From positions 64,225 to 128,224 of the forward strand of contig CAKVGZ010000003.1 of assembly GCA_934747765.1 (NCBI GenBank): 64,000 nucleotides of DNA. Direction: 5' to 3'. Origin of the DNA: an uncultured Clostridia bacterium (GTDB lineage Bacteria > Bacillota > Clostridia > Christensenellales > UBA1242). Numbering within the stretch: position 1 is the stretch's first letter; each line of letters begins with the position of its first letter. A program made the position numbers and the translations under genes. This document shows positions 5 through 9,495 of the stretch, one piece after another. Below the pieces are notes generated by a model, which was given only the letters and a program-made list of their open reading frames with translations, was not told the origin of the DNA and did not search any database.

Positions 5-1330
5 TTGGCTCTTGAAAATTTGATGATTAAAACGAAATTCTATAACAAAGTTTTGTTCAAAGAAAATGGTCAACAAAAAATAAATTATATAAAACAATTC
101 TTGAAACACATTGAAGAAACAAATTTGAATTTTGATATAATTAATTTATTAAAATATCTAAACGATGTTGGAGAAATCAAAGTTTCTTCCATTCAAAAAA
201 AGACCGACAATTGTGTTCAGATAACAACAATTCATTCAAGCAAAGGCTTGGAATATCCAGTTGTTATCTTGGCGGACACAGGCAGAAATTTTTTGAAGAA
301 AAAAGTGCAATCTGGCGACCTGGAAATTGATAAAAAATTTGGAATGGCAATAAAACATTATGACAAAAACGAAAGAAAAATATATAACTCCATTTTCAAC
401 GAAATGATAAAAAGGGCAGAGAAGAAAAAAGAAATTGCAGAAAGTTTAAGGCTTTTGTATGTGGCATTAACTCGTGCAAAGAACAAACTTTTAATAACAG
501 GCAAATTGCCAAAGCAAATTGGGCGAATCGATTTTAACGAAGACTGTTTTTCATGTGAATCGACATATTTAAACTATATTCTTGGAGCCATCGACGGAGA
601 AAAAATTGAAGGAACAGAAATTGAATTTGCTTCGCAAGACGATTTTGAAAATGAAAATTTCGAAAGAGAAAAACTTGATGTTTCGCGTTTTTTCAATTTG
701 AAATTTGAAGAATACAAATATCCTTTTGAACATGAAAAAGACCTTTCAATTAAAACTTCTGTAAGTCAAATATCTTTTGATAATGACGGATATGACACGG
801 TGAATTTTTCTCCAATCAACTTCAAAACAAGCGAACATTTTAGCGAAAAAATCAGTCCAGAACAAGGAATCATTTTGCATGAAGTTTTGGAAAAAATAAA
901 TTTTGAAAGTTCAAACATCGAAAAAGATTTAAAAGAATTAATTGAAAATATTCCAAATGATGTTTTTGACAAAGACGAATTATTTAATGTTTCAATTCAA
1001 AACATTAATTTAATTAAAAAAATAATCCCAGAAAATAATATCTGTTACAAAGAAAAAGAATTTATGGTGTATGCAAGCCAAAAAGAAATTTTTGGAGAAG
1101 GCGACGAATCAAAACTTTTGATTCAAGGAAAAATTGATTTATTTTCTTCTGGTGAAAAAAATATTTTAATTGATTATAAATACACAAACATTTCGTCAGA
1201 TGAAAAGATAATTCAGAAATATAAAAAACAACTTTTTGCCTACAAATTTGCAATCGAAAAATCCATTGGAAAGCAAATTGATGAAATTTATATTTTAAAC
1301 TTGAAAAAAATAAAAATTATAAAAATATGA
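5..1330 (+). CDS. addA: ATP-dependent helicase/nuclease subunit A (AddA/RexA family), C-terminal portion; the 5' end lies upstream of the window
   Basis: UvrD-family helicase C-terminal motifs (TTIHSSKGLEYPVVILAD, RLLYVALTRAKNKLLITG) are followed by a PD-(D/E)XK-like nuclease tail (GKIDLF...DYKYT). The ORF is open to the window start. Confidence 0.6.
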   Translation: MALENLMIKTKFYNKVLFKENGQQKINYIKQFLKHIEETNLNFDIINLLKYLNDVGEIKVSSIQKKTDNCVQITTIHSSKGLEYPVVILADTGRNFLKKKVQSGDLEIDKKFGMAIKHYDKNERKIYNSIFNEMIKRAEKKKEIAESLRLLYVALTRAKNKLLITGKLPKQIGRIDFNEDCFSCESTYLNYILGAIDGEKIEGTEIEFASQDDFENENFEREKLDVSRFFNLKFEEYKYPFEHEKDLSIKTSVSQISFDNDGYDTVNFSPINFKTSEHFSEKISPEQGIILHEVLEKINFESSNIEKDLKELIENIPNDVFDKDELFNVSIQNINLIKKIIPENNICYKEKEFMVYASQKEIFGEGDESKLLIQGKIDLFSSGEKNILIDYKYTNISSDEKIIQKYKKQLFAYKFAIEKSIGKQIDEIYILNLKKIKIIKI

Positions 1331-1401
1331 AAAATATTATAAATTTATTAGTTATTTATTTTTTAATGTGATATACTAATGCCATAAAAATGGAGGAAAT
1401 T

Positions 1402-3570
1402 ATGAAATATTTAGGAGCAGATTTATTCCAAAACATTGTCGTATTTTTCCAATCGGCAAGAGAAAGTATTTCGCTTGAATATCTTTTGTATATTTTTATT
1501 GCCATTGAAGTATTAACGATTTTAGTTTTTAGTTTTATTGTACACAATGTATATGAACTTAAATTGGTTCGTGCAGTTGACAAAATAAATGCATATTTAT
1601 ATGAAGTTAAATATATCAATGAAAATAATTTGATTGAATTTAACAACATGATGAAACGTGTTCCAAAAACACTTAGATATCATTGGCAACAATATATGCT
1701 CAATCGTGAAAAAAATCCAAGTTATTATATGTCAGTTGAAAACTGTGTTGATCGCCCACTCAAAACAAGCACCTTTTCAACCACAATAAAAACTTTCAAA
1801 TATCTTGGATTTGCTTATGCAATTGTTGCGTTTATAATAAGTTGTGGATGGGCAACTGGGCTTGCAACTGTTGCTCCAGATTATTTCATCCTTGTGTTTG
1901 CAATTCCACTTGTTGTTTTGCTTTTGACATATATATTCGTTATCATTTTGAACATCAGAAAAACTTCGAATGCAAATGAACTCTATCAAACATTCCAAAT
2001 TTTCAACAGATTCATCGATAAGGCTGTTTCAACAATGCCAGATTATGTTGACTTTGAAGTTTTGTTCACTCAACAAGAAATTCAAAGAGGAATTCCTGTT
2101 TTGAACGAATATATCGAAAAACGTCAACTCCAAGAACAAGAAGAAATGAAACGTGCACGTGAAAATGCAATTCAACACGAAAATTACAATTTTGAGTCGG
2201 CGGGAGAAAAAGGTGAACTTGTTCTTGAAAGAGCAATGAAAGAAACTGAACTTTTTGTTAGTTTGAGAAGCAGACTTGAAGCTGAAATTCAACAACTTGA
2301 AGGTGAAATTGAAAGTTTAAAACGTAACTTTGATAACACCACAAAGGACTATCAAAAGAAACTTCAAGCAAGCAAAGAAAACAGTGAACGTTTGAGAGAA
2401 CAACAAGAAGCAACAACAAACAGAATTGAAAACAACTATATAAGAAAACAACAAGCTGATGAAATCAGAAAACAAGAGCAAATTGAAAAAGACCAAGAAG
2501 ATGCTCAACTTAGATTTAATCAAGAAATTAACAACCTTGCAACAGAAATTCAAAAACGAAAAGAAGAACTAGAGGAAGCAAGAGTTAACGTTGAAAAATC
2601 TATGCTTGCTGAATATAAAACTTTTGCAAATAAAATTTACAAAGAAATTCGCGACACTGTTAACGAGCAAGTTAAAGAAGAAAGAGAAGAATTGATTGGC
2701 TCTCGTGAAGAAGTTGCACGTGAACTTGAAGCAACTCTTGCAAAACTTGACAAAATAGAAAAAGAAAACAAAGTTTTGGTTGACAAAGCTGATGAACGTG
2801 ATGCAAAGGTTAGAGCGGAAATTGAAACAGAAAAAAATGCTTTGAAAAAAGAACTTGAGCAAAAAGAAGAATTGTTGAATAAAAAGAACAAAGAAATCAA
2901 TTTAATGGCTGAAGATTATGCTCAAAAACTTAAAAAAGCAGAAAAAAAGCCTGAAGAAAAAACTGAAGACGGAAGTTATGATGCTGACGGGAATTATAGA
3001 TATAACAACGGAAGCTTTTATGACAAAGACGGAAATTTCCATGACGTAAATGGAAACGTGTTTGACATTGATGGAAGAAAAGTTGAAATTCTTGAAGAAA
3101 CACCAGCAGAAGAAATTGTTGACAAGCCAGTTGAGTTTGAAGAAGATTCTTTTGATGCATTCAATGCTGAGCCTGACAAAAAGCAAAAAATAGAATTTAA
3201 TGATTTCTTCGAAGAAGATTTGTTTGGAGGAGATGACAACTCTTTGGTCATCGAGCCAAAAAAAGTTGCAAAACGTGGAAGACCAAAAAAGACTGAAACT
3301 GTTGCGCAAGCAAAGCCAGCTGGCAAACGTGGAAGACCTAGAAAAGAAGCGACTGCTGAAAAGAAAGAAGTCAAACATGTTGGTCGTCCAAGAAAAACAG
3401 ATTCACAGCCTGCGAAAAAACCTGTTGGCCGTCCAAGAAAAAGTAAAATTGATTTGGATGAAAATTTACGTTCGATAGAAAATCGTTTGAGAGAACAAAA
3501 TGAACTTCTTAAACAACAACAAAAAGCACTTGACATAACAATTAAAAATGTCATCAAGCCAAAGAAATAA
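1402..3570 (+). CDS. membrane-anchored coiled-coil protein with four C-terminal AT-hook (GRP) DNA-binding motifs; hypothetical
   Basis: GGAGG lies 6 nt before the ATG at 1402, which is inside the track ORF beginning at 1390. Three or four N-terminal TM helices are followed by about 300 aa of E/K/Q-rich heptad-like sequence, then D-x-DGN repeats, then KRGRPKK, KRGRPRK and VGRPRK x2. A terminator follows. Confidence 0.55.
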   Translation: MKYLGADLFQNIVVFFQSARESISLEYLLYIFIAIEVLTILVFSFIVHNVYELKLVRAVDKINAYLYEVKYINENNLIEFNNMMKRVPKTLRYHWQQYMLNREKNPSYYMSVENCVDRPLKTSTFSTTIKTFKYLGFAYAIVAFIISCGWATGLATVAPDYFILVFAIPLVVLLLTYIFVIILNIRKTSNANELYQTFQIFNRFIDKAVSTMPDYVDFEVLFTQQEIQRGIPVLNEYIEKRQLQEQEEMKRARENAIQHENYNFESAGEKGELVLERAMKETELFVSLRSRLEAEIQQLEGEIESLKRNFDNTTKDYQKKLQASKENSERLREQQEATTNRIENNYIRKQQADEIRKQEQIEKDQEDAQLRFNQEINNLATEIQKRKEELEEARVNVEKSMLAEYKTFANKIYKEIRDTVNEQVKEEREELIGSREEVARELEATLAKLDKIEKENKVLVDKADERDAKVRAEIETEKNALKKELEQKEELLNKKNKEINLMAEDYAQKLKKAEKKPEEKTEDGSYDADGNYRYNNGSFYDKDGNFHDVNGNVFDIDGRKVEILEETPAEEIVDKPVEFEEDSFDAFNAEPDKKQKIEFNDFFEEDLFGGDDNSLVIEPKKVAKRGRPKKTETVAQAKPAGKRGRPRKEATAEKKEVKHVGRPRKTDSQPAKKPVGRPRKSKIDLDENLRSIENRLREQNELLKQQQKALDITIKNVIKPKK

Positions 3571-3571
3571 T

Positions 3572-3597
3572 AAAAACTGCCTTGGGCAGTTTTTTAT
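3572..3597 (+). terminator. rho-independent terminator (CTGCC-ttg-GGCAG plus T-run)
   Basis: A hairpin and a U-tract follow immediately after the stop at 3570. Confidence 0.6.
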
Positions 3598-3669
3598 TTT
3601 TTGTAAATAAATTTCCATAATTAAACCAAAAAGTTTGTCATATAATAATTTTGTGATAGAATTGGGTGA

Positions 3670-4500
3670 ATGAAAAAGTTACTTGCCGTTTTGATGATTT
3701 TGTTTTGTTCTTTGCCTTTGGTTGGGTGCACTTCCGCACGCAATCTTTCTTCTGTTAACACAAAAATTTCTTCGCTCTATCTTGTTGCAGATTTGTCGGA
3801 ATCTAAACTTTCTTCCATGACTAGCGAAGAAAAATCTGCAGTTAAATCGGCCTTCGAAACTCAATCTAACAAATATTTGCTCGAATTGAAAACTAGATAT
3901 TATAATGCTCTTGAAGAGCAAGCGGATTTGGGCAAGATAACGTCAAACGAAAAAGTTTTGCTTAAAAATCACATGTCAGACTATGTTAGATGGGACGAAA
4001 ATAAATTTATTATTGAGCTCAAATTTTATTCAACTTTTGCTTCAAAAATTTTCCTTGAAAGTGGAGCAGGTTTTCAAATTGAAAACAAGGAAGAAATGTT
4101 TTGCACAAAAACATATGTTTCCTATGGCCAAATTTTTTCAAAGACGCCAAATAATATAATAACAACAAATATTGAGGATTTTTTTAATAACAAGATTAAA
4201 GACAATTTGGCAACATTGGGCGATAGCAAACTTGAAAACATAAACTATTACAATTTGATTGTTTCTGAGAGTCCGATTATTCATGCAACTGGAACGACGG
4301 ATGAAGTGTCTGTGGGCGATAAATCTGTGTTTTGCTACGATTCAAGCAAAGAACTCTTCGATTTCTATGTTGTTCAAGCAAACACACTTGTATATTATCT
4401 CTTGGCGCTTGCCATAACATTTGTGTTCATTTCAACATATTTAGTTGTGATATATTTCAAAAAAGATAAAAAAGAAGACGAGAATTTTGAAATAGAATGA
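3670..4500 (+). CDS. lipoprotein with a C-terminal TM helix; hypothetical
   Basis: Signal peptide with a lipobox (LPLVGC), and a hydrophobic C-terminal helix (LLALAITFVFISTYLVVIYF). Confidence 0.45.
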   Translation: MKKLLAVLMILFCSLPLVGCTSARNLSSVNTKISSLYLVADLSESKLSSMTSEEKSAVKSAFETQSNKYLLELKTRYYNALEEQADLGKITSNEKVLLKNHMSDYVRWDENKFIIELKFYSTFASKIFLESGAGFQIENKEEMFCTKTYVSYGQIFSKTPNNIITTNIEDFFNNKIKDNLATLGDSKLENINYYNLIVSESPIIHATGTTDEVSVGDKSVFCYDSSKELFDFYVVQANTLVYYLLALAITFVFISTYLVVIYFKKDKKEDENFEIE

Positions 4501-4823
4501 TTTTTCGAGCAATGAAAGTTAAACAATTGACTTTCATTGTTTTTGTTGATAGAATAGTTTCGATGCAAAGTTCTGAAAAAAGAAAAATGAAATCTAGTTT
4601 GAAAAGAAGAACAATCGAACTTCTCAGCACGATTCCTGTTGGAGTTGGCTTTGCGGTGCTTTTTTGGAAGATTGGGCTTTATGTTTCGCTTCAACTTTTT
4701 TTGACGATTGTTTGTTGGGGAGCAGTTTTTGTTATTATTGATATTGTTGTTATGTTGATTCAAAAAAAGATTGCAGAGAAACAAAGCAAAAAACCGAAAC
4801 GAAAAGACCCGTTTGCGGATTAG
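4497..4823 (+). CDS. small integral membrane protein; hypothetical
   Basis: 108 aa with two predicted TM helices. It overlaps the upstream stop by 4 nt, suggesting translational coupling. Confidence 0.35.
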   Translation: MIFRAMKVKQLTFIVFVDRIVSMQSSEKRKMKSSLKRRTIELLSTIPVGVGFAVLFWKIGLYVSLQLFLTIVCWGAVFVIIDIVVMLIQKKIAEKQSKKPKRKDPFAD

Positions 4824-6546: not shown

Positions 6547-7116
6547 ATGGAACTTAAAGTTTGGGCAAAAACTATGTTGACGGTTCAAAGACATCTTGGA
6601 AAGGTCACCAAGGCGCTAGATCACGTGATTTACAAAAAGGCAATTGCTTCGATGTTTGTCAATTCAAAAAATCTTCACGAAAACAGCGGTGAGGCAGTTA
6701 GTAAATTTATTATTAATTTGATGGACAGCAAAATTAATTTAATCAATCTCAACACTATTTGTGTTAACGGACTTAAAAAAATTGATAAAACTTGCGCTAA
6801 AATTTTGATTTTAAAACATATTGATGGGAGAACTAGCAACGACATTGCAAAATTGCTCGGCTTGAGCGACAGAACTTATTTCAGACGCCTTAACAAAGCA
6901 TATGAAGAATTTGAAAATTATTTAAGGGAGAATAATTTTACAGATGAATATTTTATAAAACGTTATTCATCTGAAGGTTGGATAATGGAAGTTCATGACA
7001 AATGTTTGGAATTTTTTGAAAGTGGAAATTCTGAAAATGAAATTTTTTCTTCAAATTTTGATTGTTTAAGAATTATAAAAAATATAAAAAAATCCATTCA
7101 TTCGTCATATTCATAA
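6547..7116 (+). CDS. phage-type transcriptional regulator with a sigma-70 region-4-like HTH (ArpU/RinA-like late-gene activator family)
   Basis: C-terminal HTH (TSNDIAKLLGLSDRTYFRRLNKAYEEFENYL). RBS is AAGGAG. It sits directly upstream of a terminase gene. Confidence 0.45.
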   Translation: MELKVWAKTMLTVQRHLGKVTKALDHVIYKKAIASMFVNSKNLHENSGEAVSKFIINLMDSKINLINLNTICVNGLKKIDKTCAKILILKHIDGRTSNDIAKLLGLSDRTYFRRLNKAYEEFENYLRENNFTDEYFIKRYSSEGWIMEVHDKCLEFFESGNSENEIFSSNFDCLRIIKNIKKSIHSSYS

Positions 7117-7961
7117 TAATCTTGATGTCGCAGTTTTTTCTTTCTTTTGCGAGGTTTGGATTCTGCTTCTTCCAAAGCGCGTGCGGTGATTTTCGTTGGT
7201 TTGAAAAGAAGATAGATAATCACAACGCATGGCAAACAAACTGCAACAATTATTATTATTTGAGTTGTTGATGGAAGAGAACTGAGTCCACTTTCTTCAA
7301 CTTGATTTGCTGGTGCTTGGGTTGGAACGGTGAAGTCGGGTTCTTCAATTTCTTCAAGAAGTTCGGTGTTTGAAGGAATTGTGGTTAATAGGTCGCAAAA
7401 CGCGCCATAAACGTATCCAAAAACTTCGCTTCCGTTTCTGATATATTTACAATAAAACCAAGTTGATGATTTGTGTGAAATTGCTTCTTCGCCGTCAATA
7501 GTTCCATAATATCTCAAATTTGTTTCGAGAAATGGCAATGTTTCGATTGTGTTAAGACCTTCCGATTGCGACGGGCTTGAACGAAGTGCAGTGCCTCCTG
7601 GAATGAAAACTCGGAAACTTGCATTTGCAAATGGTGTTTGAGGCACTCCTTTAACGCATTTTACTTCACTTTTTTTCACGTAACCAGTTTTATCTAAATA
7701 TCTTGCCGTGAAAAAATTGGAATTTTCACAACTTGAAATTTCAACAAAATATGTTTGAGGGATGACAAAAAAAATGTTTGAAACTTCTTCACTTCCGTTG
7801 GTTGATCGATATAGTTTTACGTTTGATGAAACAATTTGGGCATAGTAAACCTGTGACACAGCGCACACATAAGATGGTTTTGATTTTGGAAGCAAAAGCA
7901 CAGCGACAAGAAAAATTGATATTAAAAAAACAGTTGTTTTCTTAAATATTTTTGCGGTCAT
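7098..7961 (-). CDS. membrane-anchored protein with two SH3b-like domains; hypothetical
   Basis: N-terminal signal/TM, two ~70-aa segments matching an SH3b-like pattern (V.LYRS.NGS...GYVKKSEV), then a C-terminal TM helix and a basic tail. Confidence 0.35.
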   Translation of the reverse strand: MTAKIFKKTTVFLISIFLVAVLLLPKSKPSYVCAVSQVYYAQIVSSNVKLYRSTNGSEEVSNIFFVIPQTYFVEISSCENSNFFTARYLDKTGYVKKSEVKCVKGVPQTPFANASFRVFIPGGTALRSSPSQSEGLNTIETLPFLETNLRYYGTIDGEEAISHKSSTWFYCKYIRNGSEVFGYVYGAFCDLLTTIPSNTELLEEIEEPDFTVPTQAPANQVEESGLSSLPSTTQIIIIVAVCLPCVVIIYLLFKPTKITARALEEAESKPRKRKKKLRHQDYYEYDE

Positions 7962-8037: not shown

Positions 8038-9495
8038 ATGACAAAAACTGAAATTTTGAAAATGATATATTCAATCGATAAACAACTGAAAATAAAAAGT
8101 TCTCATAATGCAATTGACAAATACAATTCTGGCAACAAAAAACATTTGAAACAACTTGAATTTCACAAATGTTCCAAAAGAAACAGATGGGTGTTTGGTG
8201 GAAACAGAAGTGGAAAAACTGAATGCGGAGCAGTTGAAACTGTTTGGCTTGCAAGAGGAATTCACCCTTACAGACAAAACAAAGATAATATTTCGATTTG
8301 GGTTGTTTCTCTTTCAAAACAAGTTCAACGTGATGTTGCGCAAAACAAAGTTTTTCATTATTTAAAGCCAGAATGGATTGAAGACGTTGTTATGGAAAGT
8401 GGCAGTAAAGATTTCCCTGAAAGCGGAATTGTGGATTATTTGCTGATAAAAAATATTTTTGGAGGCTACAGCCGAATTGGGTTCAAAAGTTGTGACCAAG
8501 GTCGAGAAAAATTTCAAGGAACTTCGCTTAATTATGTGTGGTTTGACGAAGAGCCTCCGCAAGATATATACAAAGAATGCAAAATGAGGGTTATTGACCG
8601 ACAGGGCGAAATTTATGGCACCATGACTCCACTCAAAGGATTGACGTGGGTGTATGACGAAATTTATCTGAATGAAAAAATGGACGATGAAGTTTGGTCG
8701 ATTTGCATGAGTTGGGATGATAATCCATATTTAAACGAAGATGAGATAAAAAGTTTGAAAGCGTCAATGAGTGAAAGCGAACTTGAAACAAGATGCTATG
8801 GAAAGTTCACTGCAGTTGGCGGACTTGTCTATCCTGAATTCGACCCAGACGTGCACGTCATAGACCCGTTCGATGTTCCAAAAGAATGGTTTGACAAAAT
8901 TTCTATTGACCCAGGTTTGAACAACCCGCTTTCAGCTCACTGGTACGCCGTGGACTTTGATGGGAATGTCTATGTGATTGCGGAACATTATCAGGCGGGG
9001 AAAGATATAATTTATCATTCAAATGAAATCAAGCGCATATGCGAAAGTCTTGGTTGGGGAAAAGGCTTTGGAGGAAAATATGAAGCGATTATCGATTCGG
9101 CTGCAAATCAAAGAACTCTTGCAGGTGTTAAAAGTGTGACCGAACTATTTTTGGAAAATGGAATCTATGTTTCGCCGAAGGTTAATAAAGACCTTTTTTC
9201 TGGAATTAACAGAGTAAAATCCTATCTTAGAAATGCCGAGGGAAAATCTCGACTTTTCATTTTCAGAAACTGTGTGAATTTAATTCGTGAAATAAAAGGA
9301 TATTTTTGGGGGAACAATGATGCTCCAACAAAAAAAGATGACCACTCGCTTGACGAACTCAGATATTATATAATGTCACGGCCTGATATTCCCAAAATGG
9401 ACGTCAAAAAGACCGAAATTGAGCGAGATAAAGAAAAACTTATCAGAAAACTTGATTTTGCTAAAAAATCTCAAGGATTTAAAAAGTTTAAATAA
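8038..9495 (+). CDS. terL: phage terminase large subunit (ATPase plus nuclease); orphan
   Basis: Terminase Walker A (FGGNRSGKTECGA), Walker B (LNYVWFDEEP) and a C-terminal RNaseH-like nuclease region with acidic residues. 485 aa. Confidence 0.75.
   Translation: MTKTEILKMIYSIDKQLKIKSSHNAIDKYNSGNKKHLKQLEFHKCSKRNRWVFGGNRSGKTECGAVETVWLARGIHPYRQNKDNISIWVVSLSKQVQRDVAQNKVFHYLKPEWIEDVVMESGSKDFPESGIVDYLLIKNIFGGYSRIGFKSCDQGREKFQGTSLNYVWFDEEPPQDIYKECKMRVIDRQGEIYGTMTPLKGLTWVYDEIYLNEKMDDEVWSICMSWDDNPYLNEDEIKSLKASMSESELETRCYGKFTAVGGLVYPEFDPDVHVIDPFDVPKEWFDKISIDPGLNNPLSAHWYAVDFDGNVYVIAEHYQAGKDIIYHSNEIKRICESLGWGKGFGGKYEAIIDSAANQRTLAGVKSVTELFLENGIYVSPKVNKDLFSGINRVKSYLRNAEGKSRLFIFRNCVNLIREIKGYFWGNNDAPTKKDDHSLDELRYYIMSRPDIPKMDVKKTEIERDKEKLIRKLDFAKKSQGFKKFK

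What the first reader, a model, noticed from the sequence alone, without database searches (positions are those of the whole stretch)
1402..3570. Membrane-anchored coiled-coil protein with four AT-hooks
This is a 720+ aa protein. It has three or four N-terminal TM helices, then about 300 residues of E/K/Q-rich coiled-coil. A block of short D-x-DGN repeats follows (YDADGNY, YDKDGNF, HDVNGNV, DIDGRKV), resembling Ca-binding or beta-turn repeats. The C-terminus carries four canonical AT-hook cores (KRGRPKK, KRGRPRK, VGRPRK, VGRPRK) and a short terminal coiled-coil. AT-hooks bind the minor groove of AT-rich DNA and are uncommon in bacteria. Fused to a membrane anchor and a long coiled-coil, they suggest a chromosome-to-membrane tether. 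That is plausible in an AT-rich spore-former and would be functionally analogous to RacA- or Noc-type anchoring, but the architecture is unrelated.
Basis: partly seen in the sequence, partly recalled or inferred. Interest (0 to 1): 0.6.

Follow-up and report, generated by a model that had tools for sequence, protein, structure and literature searches.

The report
ZorB-less ZorA relative with AT-hooks
This gene encodes an uncharacterised membrane protein of uncultured gut Clostridia whose base is a distant relative of ZorA (the membrane part of the Zorya anti-phage motor), whose long helical stalk ends in four DNA-gripping AT-hooks, and which almost always sits directly behind the DNA-break-processing genes addB-addA, so it probably holds DNA at the cell membrane.

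Summary
ORF 1402-3570 (+) encodes 722 aa. It has three TM helices, about 270 helical residues, Tyr/Asp/Gly hairpin repeats, an acidic spacer (net -16), four AT-hooks (net +19) and a C-terminal helix.

- **Family:** it belongs to a conserved, unnamed family of 216 clusters at 50% identity, all from metagenome assemblies.
- **Differences from ZorA:** no zorB-like gene lies nearby (0/20 loci, against 5/5 true zorA loci). ZorA's TM2 motif and the aligned ion-filter positions are not conserved.
- **Tail:** in relatives it varies between 3-12 AT-hooks, histone-H1-like K/A/P repeats, or no strongly basic tract.
- **Context:** addB-addA lies directly upstream on the same strand in 19/20 loci, usually without a terminator.

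Best reading, by inference: a non-rotary ZorA-derived membrane stalk that tethers AT-rich DNA to the membrane and is functionally tied to AddAB. This is a new variant of a known kind.

The parts
5..1330 (+). 3' part of addA (C-terminal 441 aa: UvrD_C helicase lobe plus PD-(D/E)XK nuclease), the conserved upstream neighbour
   Evidence: Pfam UvrD_C E 2e-16 and PDDEXK_1 E 1e-5. NCBIfam addA_Gpos E 8e-42. An addA homologue lies directly upstream of the homologous gene in 13/13 genome loci. addB-addA does so in 6 further loci.
1369..1377 (+). possible extended -10 promoter element (TG-a-TATACT) in the 71-nt, 15% GC spacer; there is no terminator between addA and this gene
   Evidence: Read from the sequence; this is my inference, and the consensus scan did not list it. 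No terminator-like hairpin in the spacer here, nor in 18/20 loci overall.
1392..1396 (+). ribosome-binding site GGAGG, 5 nt before the ATG at 1402
1402..3570 (+). the gene: 722-aa ZorA-like membrane protein with a helical tail and an AT-hook tip
1402..2184 (+). ZorA-homologous base (aa 5-265): N-terminal helix, TM1, helical membrane-proximal cytoplasmic domain, TM2-TM3 hairpin, post-TM3 helix
1477..1545 (+). TM1 (aa 30-52)
   Evidence: hydropathy; helix 29-52 with pLDDT >90
1549..1800 (+). cytoplasmic loop domain (aa 54-137; 14 K/R) holding the family's most conserved motifs, LR-x2-W-Q-Q-Y and R-x3-PS-x-Y-x-S-x5-[DE]-x-PL-x-T, both shared with ZorA
   Evidence: conservation table; alignments to ZorA
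1801..1869 (+). TM2 (aa 138-160); poorly conserved and lacks ZorA's GiiGTF.Gl..GL motif
1882..1956 (+). TM3 (aa 165-189); only Pro173 is conserved (112/119)
2095..2907 (+). helical tail or stalk (aa 236-506; helices 236-263, 273-341, 345-506). The proximal part to about aa 410 is strongly conserved; the distal part is variable
   Evidence: AlphaFold pLDDT mostly 73-94, ~65 at the distal end; heptad analysis; conserved columns; PADLOC ZorA3 model matches aa 247-522 at E 1.6e-5
2968..3087 (+). Tyr/Asp/Gly/Asn-rich 7-residue repeats (YDADGNY, YDKDGNF, HDVNGNV, FDIDGRK), predicted as beta-hairpins
   Evidence: two or more copies in 58/116 family representatives
3088..3255 (+). acidic, disordered spacer (aa 567-622, net charge -16)
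   Evidence: pLDDT <50
3262..3447 (+). AT-hook array (aa 625-686, net charge +19). Hooks are at 3271-3291 (KRGRPKK), 3325-3345 (KRGRPRK), 3379-3396 (VGRPRK) and 3424-3441 (VGRPRK)
   Evidence: Pfam AT_hook 22.4 bits against cutoff 17.4; coordinates; near-invariant GRP-x-K columns; disordered in the model
3454..3555 (+). C-terminal amphipathic 'tip' helix (aa 689-722) followed by KPKK. The motif I-x2-EN-x2-L-x6-L-x3-I recurs across the wider family
   Evidence: pLDDT 83-92; heptad pattern; consensus of 60 diverse members; 87/116 members end K-rich
3572..3604 (+). intrinsic terminator (10-bp stem, 4 G-C pairs, T-run) two bases after the stop codon. The next gene has its own promoter-like site at 3635-3662

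Best explanation
The gene encodes a ZorB-less relative of ZorA.

**Base.** The N-terminal ~260 residues are homologous to the membrane base of ZorA: three TM helices plus a helical membrane-proximal cytoplasmic domain. ZorA is the pentameric A subunit of the Zorya ZorA5B2 ion-driven motor. By analogy this protein probably also forms a ring, perhaps a pentamer, in the membrane.

**Tail.** As in ZorA, a long alpha-helical tail projects into the cytoplasm. It has about 270 residues, which would reach about 40 nm if fully extended.

**Differences from ZorA.** No B subunit is encoded nearby. The TM2 motif and the polar ion-filter positions that ZorA uses to conduct protons are not conserved. It is therefore most likely a static stalk, not a rotary motor.

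**Tip.** The end of the tail is an HMGA/CarD-like module: an acidic spacer, four AT-hooks and a final helix. [quoted passage not shown] An oligomer would present many hooks (20 in a pentamer), giving avidity-based attachment of DNA to the membrane.

**Context.** The gene is kept directly behind addB-addA and is usually not separated from it by a terminator. The DNA it holds is therefore probably connected with AddAB action, for example broken chromosome ends or linear DNA near the membrane.

**Shown:** gene structure, topology signals, ZorA homology, absence of zorB nearby, AT-hook conservation, addBA linkage.
**Inferred:** oligomeric state, lack of rotation, DNA binding, the tie to AddAB function.
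For: **ZorA homology**
- Foldseek: 4 ZorA chains come first, followed almost only by TolQ, ExbB and PomA.
- Family profile against 177,635 PDB sequences: the top four are ZorA constructs, E 0.014; the next hit is unrelated at E 0.52.
- hhalign, family profile against ZorA profile: prob 93.1%, P 3.3e-7, 168 columns, family 42-211 to ZorA 25-218.
- Controls: reversed ZorA profile scores 19; 20 column-shuffled family profiles score at most 17.7; ZorA against TolQ/ExbB scores only 31.6.
- Shared motifs include the residue aligned with ZorA Arg108, which is needed for Zorya function.

**Not a motor**
- TM2 and TM3 are poorly conserved apart from P173.
- ZorA T147 and S184 align to Ala and Leu positions.
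- No ZorB/OmpA/ExbD-like ORF was found among 1508 ORF segments from the window and 20 related loci (best E 0.15). zorB follows zorA in 5/5 true loci.

**Cytoplasmic tail:** positive-inside pattern.

**DNA-binding tip**
- Pfam AT_hook is above its cutoff.
- The hook cores are nearly invariant.
- Copy number is 3-10 in the 120-homologue survey, and about 12 GRP cores in the L009 protein by my count.
- Relatives swap the hooks for H1-like (Pfam HC2) tails.
- CarD sets a precedent for an acidic block followed by four RGRP hooks, and for AT-hook/H1 equivalence.

**addBA link**
- 19/20 loci, down to 28-37% identity, while the downstream genes differ.
- No terminator in the spacer in 18/20 loci.
- A terminator lies right after the gene.
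Against: - No experiment exists on any family member.
- The oligomeric state was not modelled.
- Sequence similarity to ZorA is remote (about 12-16% identity). PADLOC ZorA models did not match the base.
- 39 of 116 distant representatives have no strongly basic tail by my criteria, so DNA binding is not universal in the family.
- One locus (L014) is not next to addBA.
- Adjacency could be inherited operon structure without shared function.
- A B-type partner could be encoded elsewhere in the genome, since only about 18 kb per locus was examined.
- The alignment inside the TM helices is uncertain, so the 'lost ion filter' rests on low-confidence columns plus the general lack of TM conservation.
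Confidence: 0.5

Rival explanations
1. A Zorya-like defence or surveillance machine. The protein would be the sensor and transducer of a chromosomally fixed system in which AddAB, a helicase-nuclease, plays the part of ZorD, and the fused AT-hooks play the part of the DNA-binding ZorC. A B-type partner encoded elsewhere, or none at all, would couple envelope events such as phage DNA injection to capture and degradation of incoming linear DNA at the membrane.
For: - ZorA homology.
- In Zorya the ZorA tail and its tip are needed to recruit a DNA-binding protein and a helicase-nuclease to the membrane (PMC11946911).
- Here a DNA-binding tip is fused to the tail, and a helicase-nuclease operon is the fixed neighbour.
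Against: - No zorB, zorC, zorD or other defence gene lies nearby.
- No PADLOC hit except a coiled-coil match.
- TM helices and ion-path positions are not conserved.
- Conserved synteny and the housekeeping surroundings (dnaB, ribosomal operon, RNase J, dnaK) look like a vertically inherited core gene, not a defence island.
Confidence: 0.15
2. A pure chromosome-organisation or segregation anchor, as the first reader proposed (functionally like RacA, Noc or RocS). It would pin AT-rich chromosomal regions to the membrane for segregation, division-site control or sporulation. The position behind addBA would be only inherited gene order.
For: - Membrane base, long stalk and multivalent AT-hooks.
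- Core-genome behaviour.
- Several loci lie among replication and origin-type genes: dnaB, ssb-rpsF, gyrB, holA, dnaX-recR.
- A YabP sporulation gene lies near one homologue.
Against: - The upstream addBA adjacency is kept while the downstream side has been reshuffled many times, which argues for selection on the adjacency.
- A third of family members have no strongly basic tail.
- No HTH, ParB or DivIVA-binding features.
- Sporulation capacity of the host was not shown.
Confidence: 0.2
3. The basic tail does not bind DNA. It would bind another polyanion (RNA, polyphosphate, anionic lipids), or simply act as a disordered spacer. The protein would then be a membrane scaffold, for example working with the SPFH/Band_7 proteins often encoded nearby.
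For: - The tail composition is very variable and sometimes not basic.
- Band_7/NfeD genes lie 1-2 genes downstream in several distant loci.
- Extended AT-hooks are known to bind RNA (my own knowledge, not tested here).
Against: - Canonical RGRP cores with flanking K/R are kept nearly invariant.
- The alternative tails are histone-H1/HC2-like, which are classic DNA binders.
- The acidic-plus-four-hook layout mirrors the DNA-binding domain of CarD.
Confidence: 0.1

Closest known systems
ZorA, the A subunit of the Zorya ZorA5B2 anti-phage motor (E. coli ZorA, PDB 8qyd; PMC11946911)
   Same: - Three TM helices with a helical membrane-proximal cytoplasmic domain between TM1 and TM2.
- The C-terminus continues as a long cytoplasmic alpha-helical tail.
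- ZorA is the best structural match and the only credible sequence match.
- Shared motifs LR-x2-W-[NQ]-[EQ]-[FY] and R-x3-PS...PL-x-T. The latter includes the residue aligned with ZorA Arg108.
   Different: - No adjacent zorB, zorC, zorD or zorE, whereas zorB follows zorA in 5/5 fetched loci.
- The TM2 GiiGTF.Gl..GL motif is absent, and the Thr147/Ser184 positions are not conserved.
- The helical tail is shorter: about 270 residues, against ZorA's ~70-nm tail (PMC11946911).
- The tail carries hairpin repeats, an acidic spacer and AT-hooks.
- Monoderm Clostridia host, with core-genome synteny next to addBA.
ExbB / TolQ / MotA (Pfam MotA_ExbB, PF01618), A subunits of other 5:2 motors
   Different: - No Pfam PF01618 hit in 0/60 family members.
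- hhalign against a TolQ/ExbB profile gives prob 0.5%.
- No exbD, tolR or motB partner.
CarD of Myxococcus xanthus (bacterial HMGA-like domain)
   Same: The C-terminal module consists of a highly acidic stretch of about 50 residues followed by four RGRP AT-hooks, and is intrinsically disordered. [quoted passage not shown] The same AT-hook / H1-like interchange is seen among homologues here.
   Different: CarD is a soluble transcription factor with an RNAP-binding Tudor-like N-terminal domain. It has no membrane domain and no coiled coil, and the rest of the protein is not homologous.
Membrane-DNA tethers RacA, Noc and RocS (from my own knowledge of these proteins)
   Same: The proposed outcome is the same: DNA held at the membrane by a protein that combines a DNA-binding part with a membrane-targeting part.
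   Different: Those proteins use HTH or ParB-type DNA-binding domains, with amphipathic helices or DivIVA for membrane contact. Here there is an integral ZorA-type base and AT-hooks, and no HTH or ParB domain was detected. None of them is linked to addAB.

Membership tests
ZorA (Zorya A subunit) | Fold of the base: TM1, helical membrane-proximal cytoplasmic domain, TM2-TM3 hairpin | tested here: met
ZorA (Zorya A subunit) | Detectable sequence homology to ZorA | tested here: met
   hhalign family profile against ZorA profile: prob 93.1%, P 3.3e-7, 168 columns. Reversed and shuffled controls score at most 19. hmmsearch against PDB: top four hits are ZorA, E 0.014.
ZorA (Zorya A subunit) | Long cytoplasmic alpha-helical tail continuing from the base | tested here: met
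   Helices at aa 236-263, 273-341 and 345-506, pLDDT mostly 73-94. PADLOC ZorA3 model matches the tail at E 1.6e-5; this could be compositional.
ZorA (Zorya A subunit) | Adjacent zorB gene (single TM with Asp, plus an OmpA-like peptidoglycan-binding domain) | tested here: not met
   0/20 related loci and the 64-kb window contain a ZorB-like ORF (ZorB HMM best E 0.15). Gene tables show no OmpA, MotB or ExbD. zorB follows zorA in 5/5 reference loci. Only about 18 kb per genome was examined.
ZorA (Zorya A subunit) | Ion-path residues in TM2/TM3 (ZorA Thr147, Ser184; GxxGT-type TM2 motif) | tested here: not met
   The aligned positions are Ala/Ser/Val and Leu/Ile. TM2 and TM3 are poorly conserved apart from Pro173. 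The alignment within the TM helices has low confidence.
ZorA (Zorya A subunit) | Zorya effector genes (zorC/zorD, zorE, or zorF/zorG) in the same operon | tested here: not met
   The neighbours are addB-addA upstream and variable housekeeping genes downstream.
ZorA (Zorya A subunit) | Pentameric assembly and anti-phage activity | not testable with these tools
   No multimer prediction or experiment was available.
MotA/ExbB/TolQ (Pfam PF01618) | Match to the MotA_ExbB profile (conserved TM2-TM3 proton-channel motif) | tested here: not met
   No PF01618 hit at E<=0.1 in the window protein or in 60 diverse family members. hhalign against a TolQ/ExbB profile gives prob 0.5%.
AT-hook / HMGA-like DNA-binding module (Pfam PF02178) | R-G-R-P core flanked by basic residues, in several copies | tested here: met
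   KRGRPKK, KRGRPRK and 2x VGRPRK. Pfam AT_hook 22.4 bits against cutoff 17.4. Cores are at least 90% conserved in 44 homologues. Two of the four hooks lack the Arg before Gly.
AT-hook / HMGA-like DNA-binding module (Pfam PF02178) | Intrinsically disordered context | tested here: met
   pLDDT <50 over aa 568-686.
AT-hook / HMGA-like DNA-binding module (Pfam PF02178) | [quoted passage not shown] | not testable with these tools
   Needs EMSA or footprinting. Indirect support comes from the swap with H1/HC2-like tails in homologues.
RacA / Noc-type chromosome anchors | HTH (RacA) or ParB-like (Noc) DNA-binding domain | tested here: not met
   No such Pfam or NCBIfam domain in the protein or in 60 relatives.

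The most novel reading that the evidence does not exclude
A ZorA-type membrane stalk has been wired directly to DNA and to the AddAB helicase-nuclease. Either it is a chromosomally fixed, ZorB-independent counterpart of Zorya that captures linear or broken AT-rich DNA at the membrane and hands it to AddAB. Or it is a housekeeping relative of the kind from which the Zorya defence motor was recruited.
Probability: 0.2. Interest if true: 0.85.

Novelty: new variant of a known kind. Interest (0 to 1): 0.72.

Why it matters
**ZorA outside defence.** ZorA has so far been described only as part of the Zorya defence motor, always paired with ZorB. Full-text searches for 'ZorA-like', for AT-hook with AddAB, and for membrane AT-hook proteins found nothing on this family. 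A conserved ZorB-less relative in monoderm gut Clostridia would show that the ZorA base-plus-tail design is used outside phage defence, and probably without rotation. This relative carries its own DNA-binding tip and is fixed next to the main double-strand-break processing enzyme.

**A testable DNA-membrane link.** It would also give a concrete candidate for a physical link between DNA and the membrane, an old and poorly resolved question in bacteria.

**AT-hooks in bacteria.** It would add a second bacterial lineage, after myxobacterial CarD, in which AT-hooks and H1-like tails are interchangeable.

**Limits.** All members come from uncultured organisms, and every functional statement is inferred.

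Tried and rejected
- **MotA/ExbB/TolQ membership.** My first hunch came from the topology. Pfam PF01618 is absent in 0/60 members. hhalign against E. coli TolQ and ExbB alone, and against a profile of 110 homologues, is not significant. Rejected as a family assignment; only the fold class is shared.
- **Profile search of the 5.8-billion-protein collection** with the N-terminal alignment, to bridge to annotated families. It returned only 12 fragments of the same family.
- **Candidate B subunits next door.** The 276-aa lipoprotein (3670-4500) and the small two-TM protein (4497/4563-4823, with an acidic residue in TM2) lie behind a terminator and have their own promoter-like site. By tblastn they accompany the gene in only 6 of 13 genome loci, and 4 of the other 7 loci end before the downstream region. 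They do not resemble ZorB, TolR or ExbD. Rejected.
- **DUF2207_C.** The Pfam match is below its cutoff (E 0.003) and seen in 3/60 members. Treated as noise.
- **Prion-protein hits** of the full-length profile in PDB (E 0.1-1). Attributed to the Tyr/Gly/Asn-rich repeats.
- **Ca-binding reading of D-x-DGN.** The motif has Gly at position 4, not the D-x-D-x-D-G spacing, and is modelled as hairpins. Not favoured.
- **Recent repeat expansion at the DNA level.** None found.
- **Phage origin.** No PHROG hit. The nearby terminase-like gene is itself a conserved chromosomal gene.
- **Organism identification.** Cluster names give only 'Clostridia / Firmicutes bacterium' MAGs. A search for assembly GCA_002919055 in the papers found nothing.
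- **afdb50 fold library.** Not available.
Full report
**1. The observation**

The window holds an ORF at 1390..3570 on the + strand (726 aa).
- **Start.** A GGAGG at 1392-1396 lies five bases before the ATG at 1402. Most of the 44 aligned homologues start at that Met (M5 is at least 90% conserved). Residue numbers below use the 726-aa frame.
- **Hydrophobic segments.** Hydropathy gives three: aa 30-52, 138-160 and 165-189. A weaker N-terminal helix (aa 5-26) precedes them.
- **Topology.** The 84-residue loop after TM1 has 14 Lys/Arg. The four-residue loop between TM2 and TM3 has none. TM3 is followed by Arg-Lys. Whether or not the N-terminal helix spans the membrane, the positive-inside rule puts the C-terminal ~530 residues in the cytoplasm.
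- **Full-length AlphaFold model** (44-sequence alignment, mean pLDDT 73):
  - helices 236-263, 273-341 and 345-506 (pLDDT mostly 73-94);
  - six short strand pairs at 529-566 (pLDDT ~80);
  - disorder at 568-686;
  - a helix at 689-722 (pLDDT 83-92).
- **AT-hooks.** Pfam AT_hook is above its gathering cutoff (22.4 against 17.4 bits). GRP is expected 0.023 times per protein from local composition and occurs four times within 55 residues.
- **Charge blocks.** The hooks sit in a block of net charge +19, preceded by a 56-residue block of net charge -16.

There are three TM helices rather than four. The helical stretch is about 270 residues rather than 300. The D-x-DGN repeats are predicted beta-hairpins.

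**2. A real, conserved gene family without a name**

- A search of 5.8 billion proteins gave 418 hits. The best 120 score above 500 bits, and most cover at least 92% of the query. Their only names are 'hypothetical protein' from Clostridia or Firmicutes metagenome assemblies.
- A filter-free phmmer scan of 1.84 billion cluster representatives with aa 1-280 found 216 clusters at E<=0.001. In full-length members the domain sits at the N-terminus, and the listed proteins run up to 1405 aa.
- Genome loci come from uncultured gut Clostridia, for example Candidatus Caccopulliclostridium gallistercoris.
- Conservation is concentrated in three places:
  - the TM1-TM2 loop (Y55, E56, N67, N80, P92, W99, R106, P110, S111, Y113, P123, S127);
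  - Pro173 in TM3;
  - aa 197-410 just after TM3.
- The TM helices themselves and the distal stalk vary.
- The hook cores (G-R-P-x-K) are at least 90% conserved, while the spacers between them are not.
- Copy number ranges from 3 to 10 in the 120-homologue survey. I count about 12 GRP cores in the L009 protein's printed sequence.
- No tandem repeat exists at the DNA level, so the hooks are maintained by selection on the protein.

**3. The membrane domain is a divergent ZorA**

The topology recalled the A subunits of 5:2 ion-driven motors: N-terminus out, TM1, a large cytoplasmic helical domain, a TM2-TM3 hairpin, then a cytoplasmic helix. Four independent tests agree.

| Test | Result |
|---|---|
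| Foldseek against 350,542 PDB chains | Four ZorA chains first (prob 1.0, TM 0.49, E 0.02), then almost only TolQ, ExbB and PomA |
| HMM of 27 diverse N-terminal domains against all 177,635 distinct PDB sequences | The four ZorA constructs are the top hits (best E 0.014). The next hit is unrelated at E 0.52. Family 102-206 aligns to ZorA 108-217 |
| hhalign, family profile (119 sequences) against a 5-sequence ZorA profile built from plasmid loci | Probability 93.1%, P 3.3e-7, score 54.8, 168 columns, family 42-211 to ZorA 25-218 |

Controls for the hhalign result:
- the reversed ZorA profile scores 19;
- twenty column-shuffled family profiles score at most 17.7;
- ZorA against a TolQ/ExbB profile, which are accepted homologues, reaches only 31.6;
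- the family against TolQ/ExbB scores 17.

Two cytoplasmic motifs are shared:
- family L95-R96-x2-W99-Q100-Q101-Y102 with ZorA L80-R81-x2-W84-N85-E86-F87;
- family R106-x3-P110-S111-x-Y113-x-S115-x5-[DE]121-x-P123-L124-x-T126 with ZorA R108...P112-S113...F116...S118...D124...P126-L127...T129.

In E. coli ZorA, Arg108 forms a salt bridge at the base of the tail, and disrupting that interaction abolishes defence (PMC11946911).

The ZorA structure dates from 2024. To my knowledge it was therefore not in AlphaFold2's training set, so the structural match is not a memorised template.

**4. It is not a standard Zorya or 5:2 motor component**

- **No motor-family sequence match.** Pfam MotA_ExbB is not matched by the window protein or by any of 60 diverse relatives. 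PADLOC ZorA models match only the coiled-coil tail (ZorA3, E 1.6e-5, aa 247-522).
- **Ion path not conserved.** ZorA's TM2 motif (GiiGTF.Gl..GL, with Thr147) has no counterpart. Thr147 and Ser184, the ion-selectivity filter whose double mutant is inactive, align with Ala/Ser/Val and Leu/Ile positions. The TM helices are the least conserved part of the family, the opposite of MotA, ExbB and TolQ.
- **No B subunit nearby.** In all five reference loci a zorB/OmpA-family gene directly follows zorA. An EH-signature zorC-type gene comes next in four of them. Around this family no such gene exists:
  - a ZorB HMM finds nothing among 1508 ORF segments of the window plus 20 related loci (best E 0.15);
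  - TolR and ExbD queries find nothing;
  - the precomputed Pfam tables of seven loci show no OmpA, MotB or ExbD.
- **Neighbouring membrane proteins are not partners.** The two downstream membrane proteins in the window lie behind a strong terminator (3572-3594 plus a T-run) and have their own promoter-like site. By tblastn they accompany the gene in only 6 of 13 genome loci, although 4 of the other 7 loci end before the downstream region. I therefore do not take them for partners.

A B subunit encoded elsewhere in the genome cannot be excluded.

**5. The tail and its tip**

Domain order: ZorA-like base, conserved proximal stalk, variable distal stalk, Tyr-rich hairpins, acidic spacer, basic tract, tip helix.

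Among 116 full-length representatives of the wider family the basic tract falls into these classes:

| Basic tract | Representatives |
|---|---|
| AT-hook array (3 or more GRP) | 49 |
| K/A/P-rich, histone-H1-like | 7 |
| K/S/T-rich | 8 |
| Otherwise strongly basic | 13 |
| Not strongly basic by my criteria | 39 |

- In a separate Pfam scan of 60 diverse members, 3 hit HC2 with a best E of 3e-10.
- A tip-helix motif (I-x2-EN-x2-L-x6-L-x3-I) appears in the majority consensus of those 60 members. 87 of the 116 representatives end Lys-rich.
- The layout 'about 50 acidic residues followed by four RGRP hooks' is that of the DNA-binding domain of Myxococcus CarD. [quoted passage not shown]
- The same interchange has happened naturally in this family. 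This is the best indirect evidence that the basic tract binds DNA.
- The members without a strongly basic tract show that the family's core function lies in the base and the proximal stalk.

**6. Genomic context**

- The upstream ORF (5-1330) is the C-terminal part of AddA.
- An addA homologue lies directly upstream, on the same strand, in all 13 genome loci. addB-addA does so in six further loci found through distant members down to 28-37% identity.
- The single exception (L014) sits beside comEC and holA.
- The spacers are 62-242 nt at 5-23% GC. They lack a terminator-like hairpin in 18 of 20 cases.
- In the window a TG-n-TATACT element (1369-1377) may add an internal promoter (my reading).
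- Downstream genes differ between lineages: dnaB here, ribosomal protein genes, iPGM, yabP or Band_7 elsewhere. One side of the gene has been reshuffled repeatedly while the addA side was kept. That pattern argues for co-transcription or a shared function with AddAB.
- The rest of the window is ordinary chromosome: DnaB, RNase J, FeoB, HrcA-DnaK-DnaJ, NusA-IF2, a GyrA/ParC-type topoisomerase subunit, PcrA, FtsY.
- The protein has no PHROG match.

**7. Most likely mechanism**

*Shown:* a conserved membrane protein with a ZorA-homologous base, a cytoplasmic helical tail, conserved AT-hooks at the tip, no zorB nearby, and fixed linkage to addBA.

*Inferred:*
- Like ZorA and ExbB it forms a ring, probably a pentamer.
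- Lacking the B subunit and the ion path, it does not rotate.
- The tail, about 40 nm if extended at 1.5 Å per residue, presents many AT-hooks (20 per pentamer). [quoted passage not shown]
- The acidic spacer may mask the hooks when they are unbound, as proposed for HMGA-type proteins (my own knowledge).
- The tip helix bundles the ends or recruits a partner. In Zorya the tail tip is required to recruit the nuclease ZorD.
- Given the addBA linkage, the bound DNA is probably connected with AddAB action, such as double-strand ends or linear DNA near the membrane.

My estimates: about 0.85 that it is a ZorA homologue, about 0.7 that the tip binds DNA, and about 0.5 for the full tether-with-AddAB reading.

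Rivals:
- a true Zorya-like surveillance system using AddAB as the nuclease (0.15);
- a tail that binds something other than DNA (0.1).

**8. Novelty and verdict**

Full-text searches found no description of this family, of ZorA-like proteins outside Zorya, or of membrane-anchored bacterial AT-hook proteins. The parts are known kinds: the ZorA base and tail, and the HMGA/CarD-like hooks. The combination, the loss of the B subunit, the monoderm host and the addBA linkage are new. I class it as a new variant of a known kind, with interest 0.72. The main caveats are that every functional step is inferred, only local genome context was available, and all members come from uncultured bacteria.

Noticed in passing
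window 8038-9495 (+): A lone terminase-large-subunit-like gene (Pfam Terminase_6N E 3e-17; PHROG 2 E 8e-31). No further phage gene appeared among the downstream ORFs scanned; an ABC ATPase and RNase J follow. tblastn finds the gene at 71-90% identity, and the following ABC ATPase at 79-89%, in six related MAG loci. It looks like a domesticated TerL-like chromosomal gene.
   Followed up: partly
window 4497-4823 (+), likely true start near 4563: A small two-TM protein just upstream of dnaB. It has a conserved acidic residue (D or E) inside its second TM helix and an invariant C-terminus KPKR[KR]DPFAD in seven relatives. Function unknown. Considered as a B-subunit-like partner and rejected.
   Followed up: partly
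window 3670-4500 (+); L014 6211-7245 (-): A lipoprotein (LVGC lipobox) that also carries a C-terminal TM helix and a short charged tail. A protein of similar architecture lies two genes upstream of the homologue in L014, but BLAST found no similarity between them.
   Followed up: partly
L015 11307-12668; L016 11203-12297; L020 11168-12208; L014 18478-18511: SPFH/Band_7 genes, with NfeD in one case, recur one or two genes downstream of distant homologues of the ZorA-like gene.
   Followed up: no
proteins P0168 and P0211 (family members from the representative search): Some relatives have about 10 copies of the Tyr-rich YDxxGNY hairpin motif and no basic tail. The block is aromatic- and Gly-rich and gave weak PDB hits to prion protein. 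Its role is unexplained.
   Followed up: no
window 6547-7116 (+) and 7098-7961 (-): A sigma-70 region-4-like regulator (Pfam Sigma70_r4_2 E 2e-5; PHROG transcription regulators). It overlaps tail-to-tail by 19 nt with a 287-aa membrane protein. Both are conserved in the six close relatives.
   Followed up: no
L023-L027 (reference Zorya loci on plasmids): The Prevotella plasmid pE2-28 carries an unannotated ZorA-like gene ('hypothetical protein') followed by an OmpA-family gene and flanked by FtsK-like translocase genes. It may be an unclassified Zorya-type system.
   Followed up: no
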